From a virus (taxonomy: Duplodnaviria; Heunggongvirae; Uroviricota; Caudoviricetes), in the IMG/VR virus record IMGVR_UViG_2802429253_000014, positions 1-30,769 of that record: DNA of 30,769 bases; one strand, given 5' to 3'. The translations under genes and the position numbers were made by a program. The notes beneath the pieces were generated by a model that saw only the letters and a program-made list of their open reading frames with translations, was not told the DNA's origin and did not search any database. Below, one piece after another: positions 4,031-12,937 of the stretch (position 1 is the stretch's first letter; every line of letters starts with the position of its first letter).

Positions 4031-4302
4031 GTATTCGTATTGAAATTGGCGAACGTTATGTCGTTACCAGTGACAGCTTTCAGTTTATTCTCCACGAGAA
4101 AAAGAGAGCGGAAAGCGGTAAAAACGCCGGTCAGGAATGGCTGGCGGTGGTTGGTTATTACCCGAAATTAAGCCAGCTCGTTTCCGGCATGATGCATCAC
4201 GATATTCTGACCGGAAGCGCAAAATCTTTTGCTGATTTAAACGCGCAGGTTGAGCAACTCAGCAAGCGTTGTTCAGAGGCTTTTGGCTCACATGGCCGTT
4301 AA
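4027..4302 (+). CDS. hypothetical protein (P2 orf83 position)
   Basis: 91-aa ORF immediately upstream of and overlapping the A start. Confidence 0.6.
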   Translation: MSIRIEIGERYVVTSDSFQFILHEKKRAESGKNAGQEWLAVVGYYPKLSQLVSGMMHHDILTGSAKSFADLNAQVEQLSKRCSEAFGSHGR

Positions 4303-6601
4303 AGCCTCCGGGCGTTTTGTCCCTCCGTCAGCATTTGCCGCAGGCACCGGTAAGGCGTTTACCGGTGCTTATGCATGGAACGCGCCACGCGAGGCCGTCG
4401 GGCGAGAAAGACCTCTTACACGTGACGAGATGCGTCAGGTGCAAGGTGTTTTATCCACGATTAACCGCCTGCCTTACTTTTTGCGCTCGCTGTTTACTTC
4501 ACGCTATGACTACATCCGGCGCAATAAAAGCCCGGTGCACGGGTTTTATTTTCTCACATCCACTTTTCAGCGTCGTTTATGGCCGCGCATTGAGCGTGTG
4601 AATCAGCGCCATGAAATGAACACCGACGCGTCGTTGCTGTTTCTGGCAGAGCGTGACCATTATGCGCGTCTGCCGGGGATGAATGACAAGGAGCTGAAAA
4701 AGTTTGCCGCCCGTATCTCATCGCAGCTTTTCATGATGTATGAGGAACTCTGCGATGCCTGGGTGGATGCGCATGGCGAAAAAGAATCGCTGTTTACGGA
4801 TGAGGCGCAGGATCATCTGTATGGTCATGTTGCTGGCGCTGCACGTGCTTTCAATATTTCCCCGCTCTACTGGAAAAAATACCGTAAAGGACAGATAACC
4901 ACGAGGCAGGCATATTCTGCCATTGCCCGTCTGTTTAACGATGAGTGGTGGACTCATCAGCTTAAAGGCCAGCGTATGCGCTGGCATGAGGCGTTACTGA
5001 TTGCTGTCGGGGAGGTGAATAAAGACCGTTCTCCTTATGCCAGTAAACATGCCATTCGTGATGTACGTGCACGCCGCCAGGCAAATCTGGAATTTCTTAA
5101 ATCGTGTGACCTTGAAAACAGGGAAACCGGCGAGCGCATCGACCTTATCAGTAAGGTGATGGGCAGTATTTCTAATCCTGAAATTCGCCGGATGGAGCTG
5201 ATGAACACCATCGCCGGTATTGAGCGTTACGCCGCCGCAGAGGGTGATGTGGGGATGTTTATCACGCTGACCGCGCCGTCAAAGTATCATCCGACACGTC
5301 AGGTCAGAAAAGGCGAAAGTAAAACCGTCCAGCTAAATCACGGCTGGAATGATGAGGCATTTAATCCAAAGGATGCGCAGCGTTATCTCTGCCGTATCTG
5401 GAGCCTGATGCGCACGGCATTCAAGGATAATGATTTACAGGTCTACGGTTTGCGAGTCGTCGAGCCACACCACGACGGAACGCCGCACTGGCATATGATG
5501 CTTTTTTGTAATCCACGCCAGCGTAACCAGATTATCGAAATCATGCGTCGCTATGCGCTCAAAGAGGATGGCGACGAAAGAGGAGCCGCGCGAAACCGTT
5601 TTCAGGCGAAACACCTTAACCGGGGTGGTGCTGCGGGGTATATCGCGAAATACATCTCAAAAAATATCGACGGATATGCACTGGATGGTCAGCTCGATAA
5701 TGATACCGGCAGACCGCTGAAAGACACTGCCGCGGCTGTTACCGCATGGGCGTCAACGTGGCGCATCCCGCAATTTAAAACGGTTGGTCTGCCGACAATG
5801 GGGGCTTACCGTGAACTACGCAAATTGCCGCGCGGCGTCAGCATTGCTGATGAGTTTGACGAGCGCGTCGAGGCTGCACGCGCCGCCGCAGACAGTGGTG
5901 ATTTTGCGTTGTATATCAGCGCGCAGGGCGGGGCAAATGTCCCGCGCGATAGTCAGACTGTCAGGGTTGCCCGTAGTCCGTCGGATGACGTCAACGAATA
6001 CGAGGAGGAAGTCGAGAGAGTGGTCGGCATTTACGCGCCGCATCTCGGCGCGCGTCATATTCATATCACCAGAACGACGGACTGGCGCATTGTGCCGAAA
6101 GTTCCGGTCGTTGAGCCTTTGACTTTAAAAAGCGGCATCGCCGCGCCTCGGAGTCCTGTCAATAACTGTGGAAAGCTCACCGGTGGTGATACTTCGTTAC
6201 CGGCTCCCACACCTTCTGAGCACGCCGCAGCAGTGCTTAATCTGGTTGATGACGGTGTTATTGAATGGAATGAACCGGAGGTCGTGAGGGCGCTCAGGGG
6301 CGCATTAAAACACGGGCTGAGAACACCAAATCGTCAGCAGAGAAACGGAAGCCCGTTAAAACCGCATGAAATAGCGCCATCGGCCAGACTGACCCGGTCG
6401 GAACGATTGCAAATTACCCGTATCCGCGTTGATCTTGCTCAGAACGGTATCAGGCCTCAGCGATGGGAGCTTGAGGCGCTGGCGCGTGGGGCGACCGTAA
6501 ATTATGACGGGAAACAATTCACGTATCCGGTTGCTGATGAGTGGCCGGGATTTTTACAAACAGAAATTGTTTTTGGGATTAATAAGTTATCTCTAAGCTA
6601 A
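4292..6601 (+). CDS. A: replication initiation protein A (rolling-circle nickase)
   Basis: About 769 aa; near-identical to P2 gpA by recall (MAVKASGRFVPPSAFAAGTGKAF..., HWHMMLF HUH-type motif, ...AAGYIAKYISKN tyrosine region). Start chosen at ATG 4292, matching the P2 N-terminus, rather than the ORF-track start at 4250. Confidence 0.9.
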   Translation: MAVKASGRFVPPSAFAAGTGKAFTGAYAWNAPREAVGRERPLTRDEMRQVQGVLSTINRLPYFLRSLFTSRYDYIRRNKSPVHGFYFLTSTFQRRLWPRIERVNQRHEMNTDASLLFLAERDHYARLPGMNDKELKKFAARISSQLFMMYEELCDAWVDAHGEKESLFTDEAQDHLYGHVAGAARAFNISPLYWKKYRKGQITTRQAYSAIARLFNDEWWTHQLKGQRMRWHEALLIAVGEVNKDRSPYASKHAIRDVRARRQANLEFLKSCDLENRETGERIDLISKVMGSISNPEIRRMELMNTIAGIERYAAAEGDVGMFITLTAPSKYHPTRQVRKGESKTVQLNHGWNDEAFNPKDAQRYLCRIWSLMRTAFKDNDLQVYGLRVVEPHHDGTPHWHMMLFCNPRQRNQIIEIMRRYALKEDGDERGAARNRFQAKHLNRGGAAGYIAKYISKNIDGYALDGQLDNDTGRPLKDTAAAVTAWASTWRIPQFKTVGLPTMGAYRELRKLPRGVSIADEFDERVEAARAAADSGDFALYISAQGGANVPRDSQTVRVARSPSDDVNEYEEEVERVVGIYAPHLGARHIHITRTTDWRIVPKVPVVEPLTLKSGIAAPRSPVNNCGKLTGGDTSLPAPTPSEHAAAVLNLVDDGVIEWNEPEVVRALRGALKHGLRTPNRQQRNGSPLKPHEIAPSARLTRSERLQITRIRVDLAQNGIRPQRWELEALARGATVNYDGKQFTYPVADEWPGFLQTEIVFGINKLSLS

Positions 6602-6723
6602 GACGCTCAAAGCAAGAGATTATTTTACTGTACGTAGCCATCTGGAATTGTGGCTGTGTTAAAACGCTCGAGATTTTTTGGATATCCAGTTATACTCCGC
6701 TTAGAAATCATTCGGAGACTAAG

Positions 6724-7770
6724 ATGGCGGTAAAAGTTGTTGATCTTTTTTGCGGTGCTGGCGGTTTAACGCACGGCTTACATTTGGCCGGATTGGACGT
6801 TGTCGCAGGCATTGATTTAGAAGGTGAGTGTCGTGTTGCATACGAAAGCAATAATGATGCACTTTTTATTGAAAAAGATATATCTCTGGTGACAAAAGAT
6901 GAAATCGAAAATCTTTTTGAAGGGGCAAGTGTTAAAGTATTGGCCGGATGTGCACCTTGTCAGCCATTTTCTAAATATACTCAGGGAAAAGATAAAAAAA
7001 ATGATAAAAAGTGGCCGTTATTATATGAGTTTGAACGTTTAATAAAAGACACGAAACCAGAAATAGTTACAATGGAAAACGTTCCTGATGTGACAAAACA
7101 TTCTGTCTATGATGATTTTTATAATACCTTAATAGCATTGGGTTATTATGTTTGGGCAAATAAGATTGAATGTGTAGATTTTGAGGTTCCGCAAAACAGA
7201 GTGAGGCATGTATTACTCGCATCTAAATTTGCGCCGATTTCTCTGATGAAACCACAAACATCGGTAAAGCTGACAGTTAGGGATTGCATTGGTAATTTAC
7301 CTTCGATTGAAGCGGGACAAGCAGATCCAAAAGACCCTCTCCATAAGGCGAGTAGATTGAGTGAAATTAATCTCAAACGTATTCTACATTCAAAACCGGG
7401 GGGGACATGGAGGGATTGGCCTGCTGAATTAATCGCTTCATGTCATGCCAAGAAAAGTGGGCAGGGATATGCCAGTGTTTATGGTCGTATGTCTTGGGAT
7501 AAACCGAGTCCAACGATAACTACACTTTGTTATGGTTTTGGTAATGGACGTTTTGGTCATCCCGAGCAGCATCGTGCAATCTCACTTAGGGAAGCAGCAT
7601 TACTTCAAACGTTTCCTGTTACATATTCATTTACCCAACCGGGCGAGCCGATCAAAATGAAAAATGTCGGGCGTATGATAGGTAATGCTGTTCCTGTAAA
7701 CTTAGGTAAAGCGATTGGTCTTTCAATAGTACATCATTTGAAAGAGTTTCACCCCGCCGCTCTTAAATAA
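6724..7770 (+). CDS. DNA (cytosine-5) methyltransferase, Dcm-like
   Basis: 348 aa with canonical C5-MTase motifs in order: I FCGAGG, IV PCQPFS (catalytic Cys), VI ENV, VIII QNRVR, X GNAVP. GGAG Shine-Dalgarno; TATACT -10-like hexamer at 6691-6696. AT-rich relative to the phage core. Confidence 0.85.
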   Translation: MAVKVVDLFCGAGGLTHGLHLAGLDVVAGIDLEGECRVAYESNNDALFIEKDISLVTKDEIENLFEGASVKVLAGCAPCQPFSKYTQGKDKKNDKKWPLLYEFERLIKDTKPEIVTMENVPDVTKHSVYDDFYNTLIALGYYVWANKIECVDFEVPQNRVRHVLLASKFAPISLMKPQTSVKLTVRDCIGNLPSIEAGQADPKDPLHKASRLSEINLKRILHSKPGGTWRDWPAELIASCHAKKSGQGYASVYGRMSWDKPSPTITTLCYGFGNGRFGHPEQHRAISLREAALLQTFPVTYSFTQPGEPIKMKNVGRMIGNAVPVNLGKAIGLSIVHHLKEFHPAALK

Positions 7771-8468
7771 GCCTGAGTATCAAGATAAGTTTGTATATTT
7801 TCAAGGATGCAGTTGAGATAATGAAAAACTTCATCCTTCATTTCTGTTAGTGTATCAATAGATGTATCTCTGCCTTTGTTTCTAAATGATTCAGAACCAT
7901 GAGCAAGGTCGTTTCTGGCCTTTTTTATTGGAAGTAAATTGCAACCATTTCGCGTTATTTCTGAATCTGTATCTGCTGAGAAGCCATATTTTTCAGCGAC
8001 TTCTCTAATTTTTCTAGCATCAACATTTCCAGAAAATAACGGATTTTTATTTGATTGGATAAGTTTTTTGTGAGCGTTTAGCCACTCTTTAAATATAACT
8101 TTTGCAATGTTCCCTTGTGAGAAATCTATTTTCCCATTTGGTGATTGTAAACTATGAAATGCTACTCTTGTAAGGTTTTCATTTACAGTATCTGCACATA
8201 ATGATTCATTAGACATTAAAACATTATGAATGTCTTCTATTGCATTGGAAATGGTTGCTTCAATGAGATTGTACAATATAATAAATGCATTAGCCTTTAA
8301 AATATGAGTCATATCAATATCAATGGGTTGTTGTATAGGCGCATCGCTTGTATTCTCTTTATAGACTAGAGATGGTTTTTTGTTTATTAGTAACTGAATG
8401 AATGAGAAGTATTCATTAATATCTTGCATTCTTTCTTGGAAAAGAATTTTACTTGTCATCTCCTCCAT
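7749..8468 (-). CDS. HEPN-motif protein (predicted RNase-type effector)
   Basis: 239 aa; C-terminal ...KKARNDLAHGSESF... fits the HEPN Rx4-6H signature (R185, H190, coded at 7899-7916). Co-oriented 10 bp downstream of the DUF262 gene; very AT-rich. Family assignment is tentative and resembles what I recall as MAE_28990-type HEPN proteins. Confidence 0.65.
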   Translation of the reverse strand: MEEMTSKILFQERMQDINEYFSFIQLLINKKPSLVYKENTSDAPIQQPIDIDMTHILKANAFIILYNLIEATISNAIEDIHNVLMSNESLCADTVNENLTRVAFHSLQSPNGKIDFSQGNIAKVIFKEWLNAHKKLIQSNKNPLFSGNVDARKIREVAEKYGFSADTDSEITRNGCNLLPIKKARNDLAHGSESFRNKGRDTSIDTLTEMKDEVFHYLNCILENIQTYLDTQAYLRAAG

Positions 8469-8478
8469 TTACTTGGCC

Positions 8479-9630
8479 TCACTCCATATTTTCATCTTCA
8501 TCTTCATTTTCATCTTCGTCGACAATATTTTCTGGAATGTCTTTCCCAAGCAACTTGTTTTTTACATATTCAATGCGTGCTTTAACTTTGGGTTTAGAGT
8601 TGCTGGCATCTGAACGTGTGTGCGTGATAAACTCTTTCGAGTTGATCCAGTCATCAATATTTTTAGGAACTAAATTGGGTTCTTCCTCTAGTGCTAATGT
8701 TGCACCGACGGCAAGAGCTTCGAAACGAATCCTAGGAACAGTGGTGGCGTTTTTCACCTTTCTGAAACCATTTGGGAAATGTGTATTAATGAATTGGCAC
8801 ATTTTATGAAATTTTTCCGCCAGCATAGCTGCGTTTTCATCTGTATATTCGGCATTTTTACGTTTTAAATAGGTTGTAAGAAATTCATCAACGCTTTTTC
8901 TGAAATCAAGATATTCTTCAGTGTAGGCAAAGTAGCGTAGTGCCAATTCTGGATATTCAGAGCGACGTTTTCTTGCATCTCCCAAAGGACAGATGCTATG
9001 AAATAGAGGATCTTCGGAAATTTCATTGATAAATGCAAGGAATGGCCCATCATGGCTACCTTGCCGTTGTTCCATTGTTGTTAGTTTTTTTCCGCCAGTA
9101 TTCAGACGGTCAAAAATTTCCCTTCTTGTCTCTTCGTCACAATGTTCTGTAAGTTCAATCATTCGAATAGTTTTTCTATCAAAACGTAGGCGACGGGGAG
9201 TACTGAAATCAGAATATTTAAAACCATTGGCTGTGACTAATTTCTGCAGGCCTTCAAGAGTTAGTTTGTTATTGGTAAATTGGTGTAGGGTTCTTATTCG
9301 TTGGCTACCGTCAACAATTTCAAGTCTACCTTCATTTTCACCTGAACCAATATCGGCAACGAATATGTAAGGTATAGGAAGATTTAAAAGCAGAGATTCA
9401 ATGAAACGGGATTTTTGCTTGTTGTTCCAGATAAACTCCCTTTGGTAGTCAGGTATAAAAAGCTCTGCCTCATCTTCTTCAAGACCATTCTGAAATTTGT
9501 CCACAATAACACTTATCGGGAACTCACGTATTTCATGGTCAGTGATTTTTTGCATTTCAACTATGCTTTGATCTAAAAGCTCCTTTTCTTCTTTAGTTTT
9601 TGGGGTATGTTCTGCTTTTTTTCTCGCCAT
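8479..9630 (-). CDS. DUF262 (ParB/Srx-like, GmrS-type N-terminal domain) protein with poly-acidic C-terminal tail
   Basis: 383 aa; IPDYQREFIW, VDGSQR and FDRLNTGGKKL match the DUF262 signature (IPxYQRxxxW / DGQQR / RLNxxG). No His-Me/HNH (DUF1524) motifs found. C-terminus VDEDENEDEDENME. Confidence 0.8.
   Translation of the reverse strand: MARKKAEHTPKTKEEKELLDQSIVEMQKITDHEIREFPISVIVDKFQNGLEEDEAELFIPDYQREFIWNNKQKSRFIESLLLNLPIPYIFVADIGSGENEGRLEIVDGSQRIRTLHQFTNNKLTLEGLQKLVTANGFKYSDFSTPRRLRFDRKTIRMIELTEHCDEETRREIFDRLNTGGKKLTTMEQRQGSHDGPFLAFINEISEDPLFHSICPLGDARKRRSEYPELALRYFAYTEEYLDFRKSVDEFLTTYLKRKNAEYTDENAAMLAEKFHKMCQFINTHFPNGFRKVKNATTVPRIRFEALAVGATLALEEEPNLVPKNIDDWINSKEFITHTRSDASNSKPKVKARIEYVKNKLLGKDIPENIVDEDENEDEDENME
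8482..8520. repeat. imperfect hexanucleotide tandem repeat (TTCATC-like) encoding the acidic tail
   Basis: Plus strand ttcatcttcatcttcattttcatcttcgtc; reverse complement encodes DEDENEDEDE. Confidence 0.6.
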
Positions 9631-9769
9631 GAGCTTATTATCCTACTATGCGTGTGATTGCATTAAATTGCATGTTAAACAAAAGCATAATCTATATCAG
9701 TCAATCAGCCAGTGGCAAGGTGTTGTGATTACAATGCAACTGCATTAGAACCGACTCATGAAGCGGGCG

Positions 9770-9788
9770 GGCGAGGCGGGGAAAGCAC
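9770..9788. other. cos: cos site (19-nt P2 cohesive end sequence GGCGAGGCGGGGAAAGCAC)
   Basis: Exact match to the P2 cohesive-end sequence as I recall it, located just upstream of Q as in P2. Confidence 0.65.
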
Positions 9789-9930
9789 TGCGCGCTGGCG
9801 GTGGTGCTGATTTTATTTTTTCAGCGTCTCAGCGCGTCGTAATGGCGTTTAGATTGTGCGCCGGGGCGCTGGTGTGTCTGCGGGCTGTTTTGCGCGGAGG
9901 TGAGCGTGTGAGGGCGTGCTGACGGGGTGT

Positions 9931-9952
9931 AAAAAAGCCGCCCGCAGGCGGC
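9931..9952 (-). terminator. rho-independent terminator after Q (end of the P-Q operon)
   Basis: On the minus strand, GC hairpin GCCGCC-TGCG-GGCGGC followed by TTTTTT, starting 6 nt after the Q stop. Confidence 0.6.
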
Positions 9953-9957
9953 GATGT

Positions 9958-10992
9958 TCAGCCGTTGTCAGTGTCCAGTGAGTAGTTTTTAAAGCGGATG
10001 ACCTCCTGACCGAGCCAGCCGTTTATTTCCCGAATCCTGTCCTGTAGCGGGATAAGTTCATTGCGGACAAAGACCTTTGCCACTTTCTCAATATCACCCA
10101 GAGACCCGACGTTTTCCGGCTTGCCGCCCATCAACTGAAAGGGGATGCGGTGCGCATCCAGCAGGTCAGCGGCGCTGGCTTTTTTGATATTAAAAAAATC
10201 GTCCTTCGTCGCCACTTCACTGAGCGGGATAATTTTAATTCCGTCGGCTTTCCCCTGCGGGGCATAGAGAAACAGATTTTTAAAGTTATTGCGGCCTTTC
10301 GACTTAACCATGTTTTCGCGAAGCATTTCGATATCGTTGCGATCCTGCACGGCATCGGTGACGTACATGATGTATCCGGCATGTGCGCCGTTTTCGTAAT
10401 ACTTGCGGCGGAACAGCGTGGCCGACTCATTCAGCCAGGCAGAGTTAAGGGCGCTGAGATATTCCGGCAGGCCGTACAGCTCCTGATTAATATCCGGCTC
10501 CAGCAGGTGAAATACGGAGCCGGGCGCGAAAGGTGTCGGCTCGTTGAAGGACGGCACCCACCAGTAAACATCCTCCTCCACGCCACGGCGGGTATATTTT
10601 GCCGGTGAGGTTTCCAGTCTGATGACCTTACCGGTGGTGCTGTAACGCTTTTCCAGAAACGCATTACCGAACACCAGAAAATCCAGCACAAAGCGGCTGA
10701 AATCCTGCTGGGAAAGCCACGGGTGCGGGATAAACGTTGAAGCCAGAATATTGCGTTTGACGTAAATCGGTGAGCTGTGATGCACGGCAGCACGCAGGCT
10801 TTTTGCCAGACCGGTAAAGCTGATTGGTGGCTCATACCATCTGCCGTTACTGATGCATTCGACGTAATCCAGAATGTCACGGCGGTCGAGTACCGGCACC
10901 GGCTCACCAAAGGTGAATGCCTCCATTTTCGGAGCGCTGGCGGTGATTGTTTTTTCCGCAGGTTGCGGTGTTTTCCCTTTTTTCTTGCTCAT
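9958..10992 (-). CDS. Q: portal protein
   Basis: 344 aa, near-identical to P2 gpQ by recall (MSKKKGKTPQPA...); start overlaps the P stop (ATGA). Confidence 0.9.
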   Translation of the reverse strand: MSKKKGKTPQPAEKTITASAPKMEAFTFGEPVPVLDRRDILDYVECISNGRWYEPPISFTGLAKSLRAAVHHSSPIYVKRNILASTFIPHPWLSQQDFSRFVLDFLVFGNAFLEKRYSTTGKVIRLETSPAKYTRRGVEEDVYWWVPSFNEPTPFAPGSVFHLLEPDINQELYGLPEYLSALNSAWLNESATLFRRKYYENGAHAGYIMYVTDAVQDRNDIEMLRENMVKSKGRNNFKNLFLYAPQGKADGIKIIPLSEVATKDDFFNIKKASAADLLDAHRIPFQLMGGKPENVGSLGDIEKVAKVFVRNELIPLQDRIREINGWLGQEVIRFKNYSLDTDNG

Positions 10993-12764
10993 CAGTAAAA
11001 CTCCAGAATGGTGGATGTCAGCGGGGTGCTGATACCGGCGGTGAGTGGCTCATTTAACAGGGCGTGCATGGTCGCCCAGGCGAGGTCGGCGTGGCTGGCT
11101 TCCTCGCTGCGACTGGCCTCATAGGTGGCGCTGCGTCCGCTGCTGGTCATGGTCTTGCGGATAGCCATAAACGAGCTGGTGATGTCGGTGGCGCTGACGT
11201 CATATTCCAGACAGCCACGGCGGATAACGTCTTTGGCCTTGAGCACCATTGCGGTTTTCATTTCCGGCGTGTAGCGGATATCGCGCGCGGCAGGATAGAA
11301 CGAGCGCACGAGCTGGAACACGCCGACACCGAGGCCGGTGGCATCAATTCCGATGTATTCGACGTTGTATTTTTCGGTGAGTTTGCGGATGGATTCAGCC
11401 TGAGTGGCAAAGTCCATGCCTTTCCACTGGTGACGCTCAAGTATTCTGAATTTGCCACCGGCCACCACCGGCGGTGCCAGCACCACGCATCCGGCGCTGT
11501 CGCCACGGTGTGACGGGTCGTAACCAATCCAGACCGGGCGGGAGCCGAACGGATTGGCGGCAAACGGCGCATAGTCTTCCCATTCTTCCAGCGTGTCGAC
11601 CATGCAGCGTTGCAGCTCCTCGAACGGGAACACCGACGCCTTGTCGTCAACAAATTCACACATGAACAGGTTTTTAAAATCGTCGGCGCTGTTTTCGCGT
11701 TTAAGCTGCTCAATGTCGAACAGCGTGCAGCCACCTTTCAGGGCGTCCTCAATGGTGACAATCTGCCGCCACTGGCCGTCCGCACAGAGAAGCCCACCGG
11801 CAAGGGCGTTATGACTGACGTCGATTTCCACGCGTTCGGCGGCGCTGGCGCGTCCCCGGTTGAACAGTTCACCTGACCAGAACGGGTAGGCGTCGTGCGC
11901 CAGCGTGGACGGGGTGGAGAAATAGGTCGAGCGCAGGTGACTCTGTGAGGCCATACCTGATGCCACCTTACGCAGTACCTGAAAATTCGGGATCCAGAAA
12001 ATCTCATCGACGTACAGGTCGCCGTTATGGCTCTGCGCGGTGTTGGAGTTGGTGCCGAGAAAAATCAGTTTTGCGCCGTTATTGCCCAGGACAATCGGGT
12101 CACCGGTAAGGTCAACGTCCACCAGACGGGCAAAGGCGATGATGTATTCGCGGAACACATACGCCTGCGTTTTACTGGCCGACAGAAAAATCTGGTTATG
12201 ACCGGTTTTCAGGGCGCGCAGCAGTGCCTCGCGGGAAAAATAAAACGTCGCGCCAATCTGGCGGGATTTCAGGATATCGCGGATGCGGTGCTCAAGCCCG
12301 GCGCGATACCAGTGCAACTGATAGTCGAAAGACTGCTCAAAGAAAATCTGCTCCAGCTTTTCGATGGCCTCGTCACTGAAAAAATTCTTTTTCGGTTTGC
12401 GACGCCCGCCTTTGTTGCGGTTAGCGACGTTCGGATTAAGGTCTGCCTCGTTGCCGGTCTGGCTGTAGCGGTTTACCCGTGCCAGTCGTTCAATCTGGCG
12501 TCCCAGCAGGTCAATTTCCTTGAAGTCACCGCCGGTTTTCTGCGGTTTGATGATGAGCTGGGTCAGCCGCGCTTCCAGGCTCATTTCGACACGGCTGATG
12601 GGGGCAACGCTGTCCCAGCCGTCGCGCTGTTTCCAGCTCTGCACCGTCGGGCGTTTCATCTGCAACATGGCGGCAATCTGCGGCACGGAAAACCCCTGCC
12701 AGTACAACAGCGCCGCCTGACGACGCGGGTCGTGTAAAAGAGTGGTGTCTGTGGTGATGGTCAT
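10992..12764 (-). CDS. P: terminase large (ATPase) subunit
   Basis: About 590 aa, near-identical to P2 gpP by recall (MTITTDTTLLHDPRRQAALLYWQGF...). Start at ATG 12762-12764 with GAGG Shine-Dalgarno; the ORF-track start at 12794 is a TTG. Confidence 0.9.
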   Translation of the reverse strand: MTITTDTTLLHDPRRQAALLYWQGFSVPQIAAMLQMKRPTVQSWKQRDGWDSVAPISRVEMSLEARLTQLIIKPQKTGGDFKEIDLLGRQIERLARVNRYSQTGNEADLNPNVANRNKGGRRKPKKNFFSDEAIEKLEQIFFEQSFDYQLHWYRAGLEHRIRDILKSRQIGATFYFSREALLRALKTGHNQIFLSASKTQAYVFREYIIAFARLVDVDLTGDPIVLGNNGAKLIFLGTNSNTAQSHNGDLYVDEIFWIPNFQVLRKVASGMASQSHLRSTYFSTPSTLAHDAYPFWSGELFNRGRASAAERVEIDVSHNALAGGLLCADGQWRQIVTIEDALKGGCTLFDIEQLKRENSADDFKNLFMCEFVDDKASVFPFEELQRCMVDTLEEWEDYAPFAANPFGSRPVWIGYDPSHRGDSAGCVVLAPPVVAGGKFRILERHQWKGMDFATQAESIRKLTEKYNVEYIGIDATGLGVGVFQLVRSFYPAARDIRYTPEMKTAMVLKAKDVIRRGCLEYDVSATDITSSFMAIRKTMTSSGRSATYEASRSEEASHADLAWATMHALLNEPLTAGISTPLTSTILEFY

Positions 12765-12937
12765 GAATACCTCGCCGTGATGAATACACGGCAAGGCTAC
12801 TGAGTCGCGCCCCGCGATTCGCTAAGGTGCTGTTGTGTCAGTGATAAGCCATCCGGGACTGATGGCGGAGGATGCGCATCGTCGGGAAACTGATGCCGAC
12901 ATGTGACTCCTCTAATCACTATTCAGGACTCCTGACA
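12765..12937. promoter_or_regulatory. divergent late promoter region (P and O operons), presumed Ogr-dependent
   Basis: Intergenic region between divergent P and O, as in P2. Contains CTGTTGTGTCA (12830-12840), also found upstream of FI. The TGT-N12-ACA Ogr consensus could not be matched exactly by eye. Confidence 0.4.

What the first reader, a model, noticed from the sequence alone, without database searches (positions are those of the whole stretch)
7749..9630. Candidate uncharacterised defence operon: DUF262 (ParB/Srx-like) protein plus HEPN-motif protein
The two minus-strand genes are co-oriented and 10 bp apart, which indicates an operon. The upstream product has the DUF262 signature (IPDYQREFIW, VDGSQR, FDRLNTGGKKL) but lacks the DUF1524 His-Me nuclease that completes GmrSD/BrxU/SspE-type enzymes. 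The downstream product has a single C-terminal Rx4H motif (KKARNDLAHG) typical of HEPN RNases. DUF262 modules act as NTP-dependent DNA or modification sensors in type IV restriction and BrxU/SspE, and HEPN domains are RNase effectors in Abi, toxin-antitoxin and CRISPR accessory systems. A sensor plus HEPN effector pair in a prophage defence hotspot is a plausible abortive-infection or restriction-like system that I cannot match to any named system.
Basis: partly seen in the sequence, partly recalled or inferred. Interest (0 to 1): 0.9.

Follow-up and report, generated by a model that had tools for sequence, protein, structure and literature searches.

The report
Methylase-linked DUF262–HEPN phage defence cassette
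The two genes are real and sit in the known defence hotspot of a P2-like prophage, but they travel with a neighbouring DNA cytosine methylase as a three-gene, restriction-modification-like cassette that was predicted in 2013, resembles the validated anti-T4 system PD-T4-2, and has never itself been tested.

Summary
Gene 8479-9630(-) encodes a DUF262/ParB-like protein (Pfam PF03235, 4.7e-28; best fold match BrxU, then SspE). It has no DUF1524 nuclease. Gene 7749-8468(-) encodes a HEPN protein (PF18737, 7.6e-18; fold matches to HEPN toxins; invariant R185/H190).

DUF262 plus HEPN is the architecture of PD-T4-2, a named and validated system (Vassallo 2022). Anantharaman et al. [quoted passage not shown]

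It converges on the HEPN gene and overlaps it by 22 bp.
- In 79 related loci, DUF262 lies directly upstream of HEPN in all 79.
- In the clades that contain this window, 28 of 30 loci carry the orthologous methylase, across four phyla.
- The tail-to-tail geometry is conserved, and so is the methylase target-recognition region.

The cassette lies between gpA and cos in a Peduovirus P24B2-like prophage.

Best reading: a methylation-coupled, restriction-modification-like defence. The methylase marks self DNA, the DUF262 NTPase senses DNA, and the HEPN nuclease is the effector. It fails the PADLOC tests for PD-T4-2 (no B hit) and Menshen (no NsnB/NsnC). I rate it a new variant of a known kind, of moderate interest.

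The parts
8479..9630 (-). DUF262/ParB-like NTPase domain (about aa 50-195) followed by a helical C-terminal domain of the NsnA 'ParBDB' type and an acidic tail. Proposed DNA and modification sensor.
7749..8468 (-). Stand-alone HEPN protein of the MAE_28990 family, with the Rx4H motif R185-N-D-L-A-H190. Proposed nuclease (RNase) effector. The true start may be M4 at 8459.
6724..7770 (+). C5-cytosine DNA methyltransferase, convergent with the HEPN gene. Proposed self-marking (modification) component.
   Evidence: PF00145 at 1.8e-54 and TIGR00675 above its cut-off. Catalytic motifs FCGAGG, PCQ, ENV, QNRVR and GNAVP are readable in the translation. An orthologue is adjacent in 28 of 30 loci of the window's clades. 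The target-recognition region is as conserved as the catalytic core.
7749..7770 (.). 22-bp tail-to-tail overlap of the methylase and HEPN coding regions, with no terminator between them.
   Evidence: Coordinates and sequence. In 28 of 30 convergent related loci the two stop codons lie between -89 and +9 bp of each other.
9689..9718 (-). Weak sigma-70-like promoter match (TTGCCA-N18-TAGATT) between cos and the DUF262 start. A candidate operon promoter only.
   Evidence: The number of promoter-like sites in the region is no higher than in shuffled sequence, so this is a position-based guess.
6602..9769 (.). Low-GC accessory island between gpA and the cos site, i.e. the P2 tin/old defence hotspot, filled by the three genes.
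   Evidence: GC 0.35-0.39 against about 0.55 in the flanks. gpA, portal and terminase ORFs. Exact P2 cos 19-mer at 9770-9788. Peduovirus P24B2 is 99.7% identical over the match, which covers 95% of the queried 6600-9950 region.

Best explanation
This is a three-gene, phage-borne, methylation-coupled defence cassette in the P2 gpA-cos hotspot. It is a relative of PD-T4-2 that works like a restriction-modification system.

Shown here: the genes, their domains and folds, the intact catalytic motifs, the operon structure, and the conserved linkage of the three genes across phyla.

Inferred mechanism:
1. The m5C methyltransferase methylates one fixed target sequence on the host and prophage DNA, marking it as self.
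2. The DUF262-ParBDB protein is an NTP-dependent DNA-binding sensor of the GmrSD/BrxU/SspE/NsnA type. It reads the modification state of DNA.
3. Incoming DNA that lacks the mark, or carries a different cytosine modification, triggers the co-translated HEPN partner.
4. The HEPN partner acts as a metal-independent nuclease, most likely an RNase working as a dimer through R185/H190. It cleaves phage or host RNA and so stops the infection, probably by abortive infection or growth arrest.

The tail-to-tail overlap with the methylase gene may couple expression of the two arms, as in convergent type II restriction-modification systems.
For: Domains and folds.

DUF262-HEPN pairing: DUF262 lies directly upstream of HEPN in 79 of 79 loci found with the HEPN profile. 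The two genes abut or overlap by 1-4 nt in many loci, which suggests translational coupling.

Methylase linkage:
- On a DUF262 tree, the loci with a methylase form their own clades: Enterobacterales, Thalassotalea, Cytophagales, Parabeggiatoa, Pyrinomonadaceae and one cyanobacterial clade. In those clades 28 of 30 loci have the orthologous methylase; one exception keeps a remnant.
- The same three-gene set occurs in Shewanella, Achromobacter, Pseudomonas protegens (as cargo of a Tn7-like element) and Moraxella phage Mcat29.
- The stop-to-stop distance is -89 to +9 bp in 28 of 30 convergent loci.
- The methylase target-recognition region is as conserved as the catalytic motifs over 29 orthologues, implying one shared specificity. 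This fits the very conserved sensor, which is 63% identical between E. coli and Cytophagales.
- A Vsr mismatch endonuclease lies next to the cassette in two loci, the usual sign of a methylase that acts on the host genome.

Mobility: loci with a methylase sit in unrelated neighbourhoods, as mobile restriction-modification cassettes do. A copy about 76% identical in DNA fills the same P2 hotspot in other E. coli.

Precedents: PD-T4-2 (DUF262 plus HEPN) protects against T4 both natively and in K-12. Anantharaman 2013 lists MAE_28990 HEPN with a ParB nuclease and a DNA methylase. SspE shows that a DUF262 domain can read a host-imposed DNA modification.
Against: Nothing here has been tested experimentally.
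- PD-T4-2 works without a methylase.
- A whole cyanobacterial clade of DUF262-HEPN pairs lacks any adjacent methylase and sits among housekeeping genes. The pair is therefore not intrinsically lethal without a linked methylase, and the methylase may be dispensable for triggering.
- The HEPN protein has no hit to any PADLOC model.
- No known DNA-cleaving domain is present, so restriction of DNA in the classical sense is unsupported.
- The methylase specificity is unknown, and whether the DUF262 protein reads that site is pure inference.
- The promoter calls are at chance level.
Confidence: 0.55

Rival explanations
1. A two-gene, PD-T4-2-like abortive-infection system that acts on its own. DUF262 senses a phage feature, such as hypermodified T-even DNA, and HEPN kills or arrests the cell. 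The methylase is an independent passenger, for example a phage anti-restriction or orphan methylase, that merely shares the hotspot.
For: PD-T4-2 has no methylase and works in K-12. DUF262-HEPN clades without a methylase exist. In GmrSD and BrxU the DUF262 domain serves recognition of modified cytosines. The methylase is on the opposite strand with its own presumed promoter.
Against: An orthologous methylase with a conserved target-recognition region is present in 28 of 30 loci of this clade, across four phyla and several kinds of mobile element. The tail-to-tail spacing is nearly fixed. Chance co-residence in a hotspot cannot explain this in cyanobacterial chromosomes, Tn7-like elements and Moraxella phages alike.
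Confidence: 0.2
2. A restriction-modification system in which the ParB-like DUF262 protein is itself the DNA endonuclease or nickase acting on unmethylated sites. The HEPN RNase is a PrrC-like second line, released only when restriction is inhibited. This is the model of Anantharaman et al. 2013.
For: The 2013 paper calls the partner a 'ParB nuclease' and proposes multi-pronged restriction-modification plus HEPN defence. A PADLOC model built from type II restriction enzymes matches the DUF262 N-terminal domain at 8.9e-7. Methylase linkage as above.
Against: In the solved and characterised relatives (GmrSD, BrxU, SspE) the DUF262 domain is an NTPase/sensor, and cleavage is done by a separate DUF1524 His-Me domain that is absent here. 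HEPN is strictly and tightly coupled to DUF262 in 79 of 79 loci. That looks like an obligate partner rather than an optional back-up.
Confidence: 0.15
3. Primarily a selfish addiction module (post-segregational killing) that stabilises the prophage or cassette, with no significant anti-phage role. Loss of the methylase unleashes the DUF262-HEPN toxin.
For: HEPN proteins are common toxins of toxin-antitoxin systems. Restriction-modification cassettes behave as addiction modules (established knowledge). The cassette is mobile and found in many contexts.
Against: Its position in the P2 tin/old hotspot, where validated defence systems reside. Its kinship with PD-T4-2, which protects. The stable pairs without a methylase argue against obligate toxicity.
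Confidence: 0.05

Closest known systems
PD-T4-2 (Vassallo et al. 2022; E. coli ECOR65)
   Same: A two-gene core of a DUF262 protein without DUF1524 followed by a HEPN protein. It is found in E. coli accessory DNA. The window DUF262 protein hits PD-T4-2_A at 9.3e-35 over nearly the full length. PD-T4-2's HEPN is assigned to PF18735, and the window HEPN also passes that model (29.6 bits against a cut-off of 28.4).
   Different: There is no hit to the PD-T4-2_B model. The two PD-T4-2 genes together span only 1540 bp, against 1882 bp here, so its HEPN must be much shorter. PD-T4-2 has no methylase. The best Pfam family here is PF18737 (MAE_28990). The DUF262 protein scores higher against NsnA than against PD-T4-2_A.
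MAE_28990 HEPN / ParB / DNA methylase operon (Anantharaman et al. 2013, Table 1)
   Same: Exactly this gene neighbourhood: a MAE_28990-family HEPN with Rx4H, a ParB-superfamily (DUF262) gene and a DNA methylase gene.
   Different: It is only a comparative-genomics entry, with no name as a defence system, no experiments and no mechanism beyond the general 'HEPN as second line to restriction-modification' proposal. The phage P2-hotspot location and the split into clades with and without a methylase were not described.
Menshen (NsnABC)
   Same: The sensor has the same architecture, ParB-DUF262 plus a helical ParBDB-type C-terminal domain. The best PADLOC hit is NsnA at 5e-55, aligning residues 31-358 to model positions 41-377 of 385. 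About 28% of Menshen operons are linked to other defence systems or methylase genes, and its authors raise the idea that ParB-DUF262 might target non-modified DNA.
   Different: There is no NsnB ABC/OLD-type ATPase transducer and no inPIN-effector NsnC. Here a HEPN protein follows the sensor directly.
GmrSD / BrxU / SspE (DUF262-DUF1524 enzymes)
   Same: The N-terminal DUF262 fold and the DGxQR-type motif. BrxU and SspE are the closest solved structures. SspE shows coupling of a DUF262 sensor to a host-encoded DNA modification.
   Different: There is no DUF1524 His-Me nuclease. The effector is a separate HEPN protein. The modification partner is an m5C methylase rather than phosphorothioation.
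PrrC-EcoprrI and other HEPN nucleases embedded in restriction-modification loci
   Same: A HEPN nuclease that is genetically and functionally tied to a modification-dependent DNA surveillance system.
   Different: [quoted passage not shown] Here no separate restriction endonuclease is present.

Membership tests
PD-T4-2 (PADLOC definition) | Component A (DUF262 protein) matches the PD-T4-2_A model | tested here: met
   E 9.3e-35, residues 59-356 against model positions 55-357 of 363. NsnA scores higher (5e-55).
PD-T4-2 (PADLOC definition) | Component B (HEPN protein) matches the PD-T4-2_B model | tested here: not met
   The HEPN protein has no PADLOC hit at E <= 0.1. The same is true of its homologues in Moraxella phage Mcat29 and Achromobacter, tested at E <= 0.01.
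PD-T4-2 (PADLOC definition) | A self-sufficient two-gene system that protects against T-even phages | not testable with these tools
   This needs plaque assays. Genomically, the pair here is linked to a methylase, unlike PD-T4-2.
Menshen (NsnABC) | NsnA-like ParB-DUF262 plus ParBDB protein | tested here: met
   PADLOC NsnA at 5e-55 over the full length.
Menshen (NsnABC) | Adjacent NsnB ABC ATPase (AAA_15/DUF3696) and NsnC effector | tested here: not met
   The island holds only the three ORFs. None has an ATPase domain.
GmrSD / BrxU / SspE type IV-like enzymes | N-terminal DUF262 domain | tested here: met
GmrSD / BrxU / SspE type IV-like enzymes | C-terminal DUF1524 His-Me (HNH-like) nuclease domain | tested here: not met
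   No Pfam hit beyond residue 190. The C-terminal half is all-helical in the model.
HEPN superfamily | Rx4-6H motif in the last core helix | tested here: met
   R185-NDLA-H190 is invariant in 19 homologues and kept as RRNQLAHG in a partner only 23% identical.
HEPN superfamily | Four-helix up-down HEPN fold | tested here: met
HEPN superfamily | Metal-independent endoribonuclease activity | not testable with these tools
   Needs biochemistry or RNA-end sequencing.
MAE_28990 HEPN-ParB-methylase operon (Anantharaman 2013) | HEPN protein of the MAE_28990 family | tested here: met
   PF18737 scores 65.9 bits against a cut-off of 26.8.
MAE_28990 HEPN-ParB-methylase operon (Anantharaman 2013) | ParB-superfamily gene in the same operon | tested here: met
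   DUF262 gene 10 nt upstream, and directly upstream in 79 of 79 related loci.
MAE_28990 HEPN-ParB-methylase operon (Anantharaman 2013) | Adjacent DNA methylase gene | tested here: met
   m5C methylase at 6724-7770, overlapping the HEPN 3' end. Present in 28 of 30 loci of the window's clades.
Type II restriction-modification system | Active DNA methyltransferase with the full motif set | tested here: met
   PF00145 at 1.8e-54 and TIGR00675 at 125.8 bits against a cut-off of 100.65. Motifs I, IV (PCQ), VI (ENV), VIII (QNRVR) and X (GNAVP) are readable. Activity itself was not assayed.
Type II restriction-modification system | Cognate endonuclease with a recognised DNA-cleaving fold and the same sequence specificity | tested here: inconclusive
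   No PD-(D/E)XK, HNH, GIY-YIG or PLD domain was found. There is only a weak match of the DUF262 N-terminal domain to a PADLOC REase_II model, at 8.9e-7. Specificity cannot be derived here.

The most novel reading that the evidence does not exclude
This is a restriction-modification system whose restriction arm is not a DNase. A ParB/DUF262 NTPase scans DNA for the absence of a specific m5C mark laid down by its partner methylase. On finding unmarked, foreign DNA it switches on a HEPN RNase. Self/non-self discrimination is then epigenetic and read on DNA, while execution is at the RNA level (abortive infection or translation arrest). The family is large, phage-borne and spread across phyla.
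Probability: 0.3. Interest if true: 0.75.

Novelty: new variant of a known kind. Interest (0 to 1): 0.5.

Why it matters
DUF262-HEPN pairs are common. The HEPN partner family alone has more than 1600 clusters at 50% identity, and the DUF262 search returned more than 4000 clusters at 90% identity. PD-T4-2 shows that such pairs can block T4, yet none of the papers retrieved here describes a mechanism for it.

The methylase-linked form described here has a natural genetic handle. The methylase should define what counts as self. One experiment can therefore test whether a ParB-type NTPase reads DNA methylation and whether an RNase can serve as the restriction arm of a modification-based immune system: compare phage grown with and without the methylase, and compare cassettes with and without it.

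The cassette is also another defence cargo of the P2 hotspot, carried by a cultured phage (Peduovirus P24B2). PADLOC v2 models do not fully detect it.

Tried and rejected
- Direct comparison with the PD-T4-2 proteins was not possible, because their sequences (ECOR65 contig QOYX01000002) were not retrievable with these tools. I relied on the PADLOC models instead.
- A tblastn search of phage genomes for a PD-T4-2-like pair found a Vibrio phage with a DUF262 protein plus a 355-aa RiboL-PSP HEPN. Its HEPN does not match PD-T4-2_B either.
- Sequence searches against solved structures gave nothing useful for the HEPN protein, and only marginal hits for DUF262: an 818-aa DUF262 protein at E 0.0076 and BrxU at E 0.07.
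- I looked for an alternative methylase in the loci without one. Clustering of flanking ORFs and a Pfam scan showed housekeeping genes (ClpB, aconitase B, ABC1 kinase). No methylase was among the listed families, but only the top 25 of 105 families were displayed, so a singleton methylase cannot be fully excluded.
- The promoter and terminator scans are at or near chance level and add little.
- The methylase specificity could not be inferred. The PDB hits (DNMT1, M.HaeIII, M.HhaI) and the best PADLOC hit (DrmMII, 1.9e-89) do not define a target site.
- A GmrSD-type type IV enzyme was rejected because there is no DUF1524 domain. Menshen was rejected because there is no NsnB or NsnC.
- Literature searches for an experimental study of the methylase plus DUF262 plus MAE_28990 HEPN combination found none.
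Full report
**1. What is there**

The window is a nearly complete P2-like prophage. It runs from the integrase at 241-1251, through gpA at 4250-6601, portal at 9958-10992 and terminase at 10992-12794, to the tail genes ending at gpD.

Between gpA and the exact P2 cos 19-mer (9770-9788) lies a low-GC island, 35-39% against about 55% in the flanks. Peduovirus P24B2 matches 95% of the queried 6600-9950 region at 99.7% identity. Three of 5426 complete E. coli genomes carry a copy more than 99% identical, and four more have a version about 76% identical in the same hotspot.

The island holds three genes:
- an m5C methyltransferase, 6724-7770(+);
- a HEPN protein, 7749-8468(-);
- a DUF262 protein, 8479-9630(-).

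**2. Check of the observation**

The ORFs, the spacing and every quoted motif are present.

DUF262 protein:
- PF03235 at 4.7e-28, with no DUF1524.
- The C-terminal half is helical. The whole protein aligns with the PADLOC NsnA model (5e-55) and with PD-T4-2_A (9.3e-35). This is the ParB-DUF262 plus ParBDB architecture described for Menshen NsnA.

HEPN protein:
- PF18737 (MAE_28990) at 7.6e-18, and PF18735 (RiboL-PSP) just above its threshold.
- The model (pLDDT 90.8) best matches bona fide HEPN proteins, including the SO_3166 and HepT toxins and Csm6.
- R185 and H190 are invariant. The motif is retained even in an Achromobacter partner only 23% identical (hhalign probability 99.2%).

**3. The missing third gene**

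The methylase has all the catalytic motifs. It converges on the HEPN gene with a 22-bp overlap.

A scan of one genome per species with the HEPN profile gave 79 loci.
- DUF262 lies directly upstream of HEPN in all 79.
- An orthologous m5C methylase is adjacent in 29 of them, one of those only as a remnant.

On a DUF262 tree the loci split cleanly.
- Loci with the methylase form clades of Enterobacterales, Thalassotalea, Cytophagales, Parabeggiatoa, Pyrinomonadaceae and one cyanobacterial group. Counting the window, 28 of 30 members have the methylase; one exception keeps a remnant.
- All remaining loci without a methylase that have a full-length DUF262 gene form a separate cyanobacterial clade. 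That clade is inherited in syntenic housekeeping neighbourhoods (ClpB, aconitase B, ABC1 kinase).

Look-ups starting from DUF262 homologues gave the same trio elsewhere:
- Shewanella;
- Achromobacter, with a Vsr gene alongside;
- Pseudomonas protegens, as cargo of a Tn7-like element, with an extra MORC-like ATPase and a Vsr homologue;
- Moraxella phage Mcat29, where all three genes are annotated as hypothetical.

Further support for a co-adapted unit:
- The two stop codons lie within -89 to +9 bp of each other in 28 of 30 convergent loci.
- The methylase target-recognition region is as conserved as its catalytic core over 29 orthologues. This predicts one shared specificity.
- That prediction fits the strong conservation of the sensor. 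The Cytophagales copy is 63% identical for DUF262, against 51% for the methylase and 36% for HEPN.
- Loci with the methylase have unrelated neighbours, as expected of a mobile cassette.

**4. How it most likely works**

Shown here: three intact genes, their folds and motifs, the tight operon of sensor and HEPN, and the conserved linkage to a methylase that probably acts on the genome (Vsr association).

Inferred: the methylase marks self DNA. The DUF262-ParBDB NTPase reads the state of DNA, as DUF262 domains do in GmrSD and BrxU for modified cytosines and in SspE for host phosphorothioate. When it meets DNA lacking the mark, it activates the HEPN nuclease, which by analogy with every characterised HEPN enzyme is an RNase. 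The outcome would be abortive infection or growth arrest.

I put this at about 0.55. The rivals are:
- **An autonomous PD-T4-2-like pair with a passenger methylase (0.2).** It is favoured by the existence of clades without a methylase and by PD-T4-2 working alone. It is disfavoured by the cross-phylum linkage.
- **The 2013 model (0.15).** Here the ParB-like protein is the DNase and HEPN is a PrrC-like second line. It is disfavoured because DUF262 domains in solved relatives are NTPase sensors and because HEPN coupling is obligate.
- **A pure addiction module (0.05).**

**5. Comparison with what is known**

The DUF262 plus HEPN architecture is that of PD-T4-2. That system was validated against T4 in ECOR65 and in K-12.

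This locus fails the PADLOC membership test for PD-T4-2 because nothing matches PD-T4-2_B. It is also larger and is linked to a methylase. It is not Menshen, because NsnB and NsnC are absent. It is not a GmrSD-type enzyme, because DUF1524 is absent.

[quoted passage not shown] RefSeq names the proteins accordingly. PHROGs lists both families as of unknown function. I found no experimental study of this three-gene form.

**6. Verdict**

The feature is real and correctly located, and the domain calls are right. The claim that it matches no named system is wrong, and the functional unit is three genes.

I rate it a new, untested variant of a known kind, a methylase-coupled DUF262-HEPN system. It is widespread; the HEPN family has 1643 clusters at 50% identity. 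It is also experimentally tractable. Interest 0.5.

The most novel reading still open is a restriction-modification system whose restriction arm is an RNase gated by a ParB-type reader of DNA methylation. I give that a probability of about 0.3 and an interest of 0.75 if true.

Noticed in passing
window 9770-9788 (+): An exact match to the 19-nt P2 cohesive-end sequence GGCGAGGCGGGGAAAGCAC (the identification as cos is from memory). It lies between the DUF262 gene and the portal terminator at 9937-9952, so the cassette sits at the right end of the packaged genome.
   Followed up: yes
L080 (Pseudomonas protegens-like contig) 5001-10358: A variant of the cassette carried as cargo of a Tn7-like element (TnsC, TnsD and TnsE upstream). 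An extra 649-aa GHKL/MORC-like ATPase (HATPase_c_3) and a Vsr homologue are inserted between the HEPN gene and the methylase.
   Followed up: partly
L005, L007, L014, L019, L025-L027 and about 16 other Microcoleus/Oscillatoriales loci, around 5350-6650: A syntenic chromosomal locus next to clpB. The DUF262 gene matches only residues 12-178, so it has the ParB-like domain and lacks the ParBDB half. It is followed by a full HEPN gene, with no methylase. This is either a minimal sensor variant or a decaying copy.
   Followed up: partly
L086 (Moraxella phage Mcat29) 3510-6407: The same three-gene cassette (378-aa DUF262, 246-aa HEPN, convergent 343-aa methylase, with overlaps of 8 and 4 nt) in temperate Moraxella catarrhalis phages Mcat24-32. 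All three genes are annotated as hypothetical.
   Followed up: partly
L087 (Vibrio phage 10N.286.55.C7_PE004) 2809-5080: A 340-aa DUF262 protein followed by a 355-aa protein annotated as RiboL-PSP-HEPN. The pair sits beside the CI repressor of a P2/186-like phage. This looks like another DUF262-HEPN variant with a longer effector, and its HEPN has no PADLOC hit.
   Followed up: partly
window 8479-8535 (-), DUF262 residues about 365-383: An acidic, low-complexity C-terminal tail (DEDENEDEDENME). It has low model confidence and varies in length and presence among homologues; some betaproteobacterial copies carry longer acidic, proline-rich tails. It could be an autoinhibitory or DNA-mimicking tail.
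   Followed up: no
window 7905-7922 (+): A terminator-like hairpin followed by a T-run on the methylase strand, 135 nt past the methylase stop and inside the HEPN coding region. Methylase transcripts would then be antisense to the 3' end of the HEPN mRNA, giving a possible regulatory coupling of the two arms.
   Followed up: no
L084 (Achromobacter aegrifaciens) 4492-7971: A Vsr very-short-patch repair endonuclease gene lies immediately upstream of the cassette. The HEPN partner there has diverged beyond Pfam detection but keeps the RRNQLAHG motif.
   Followed up: yes
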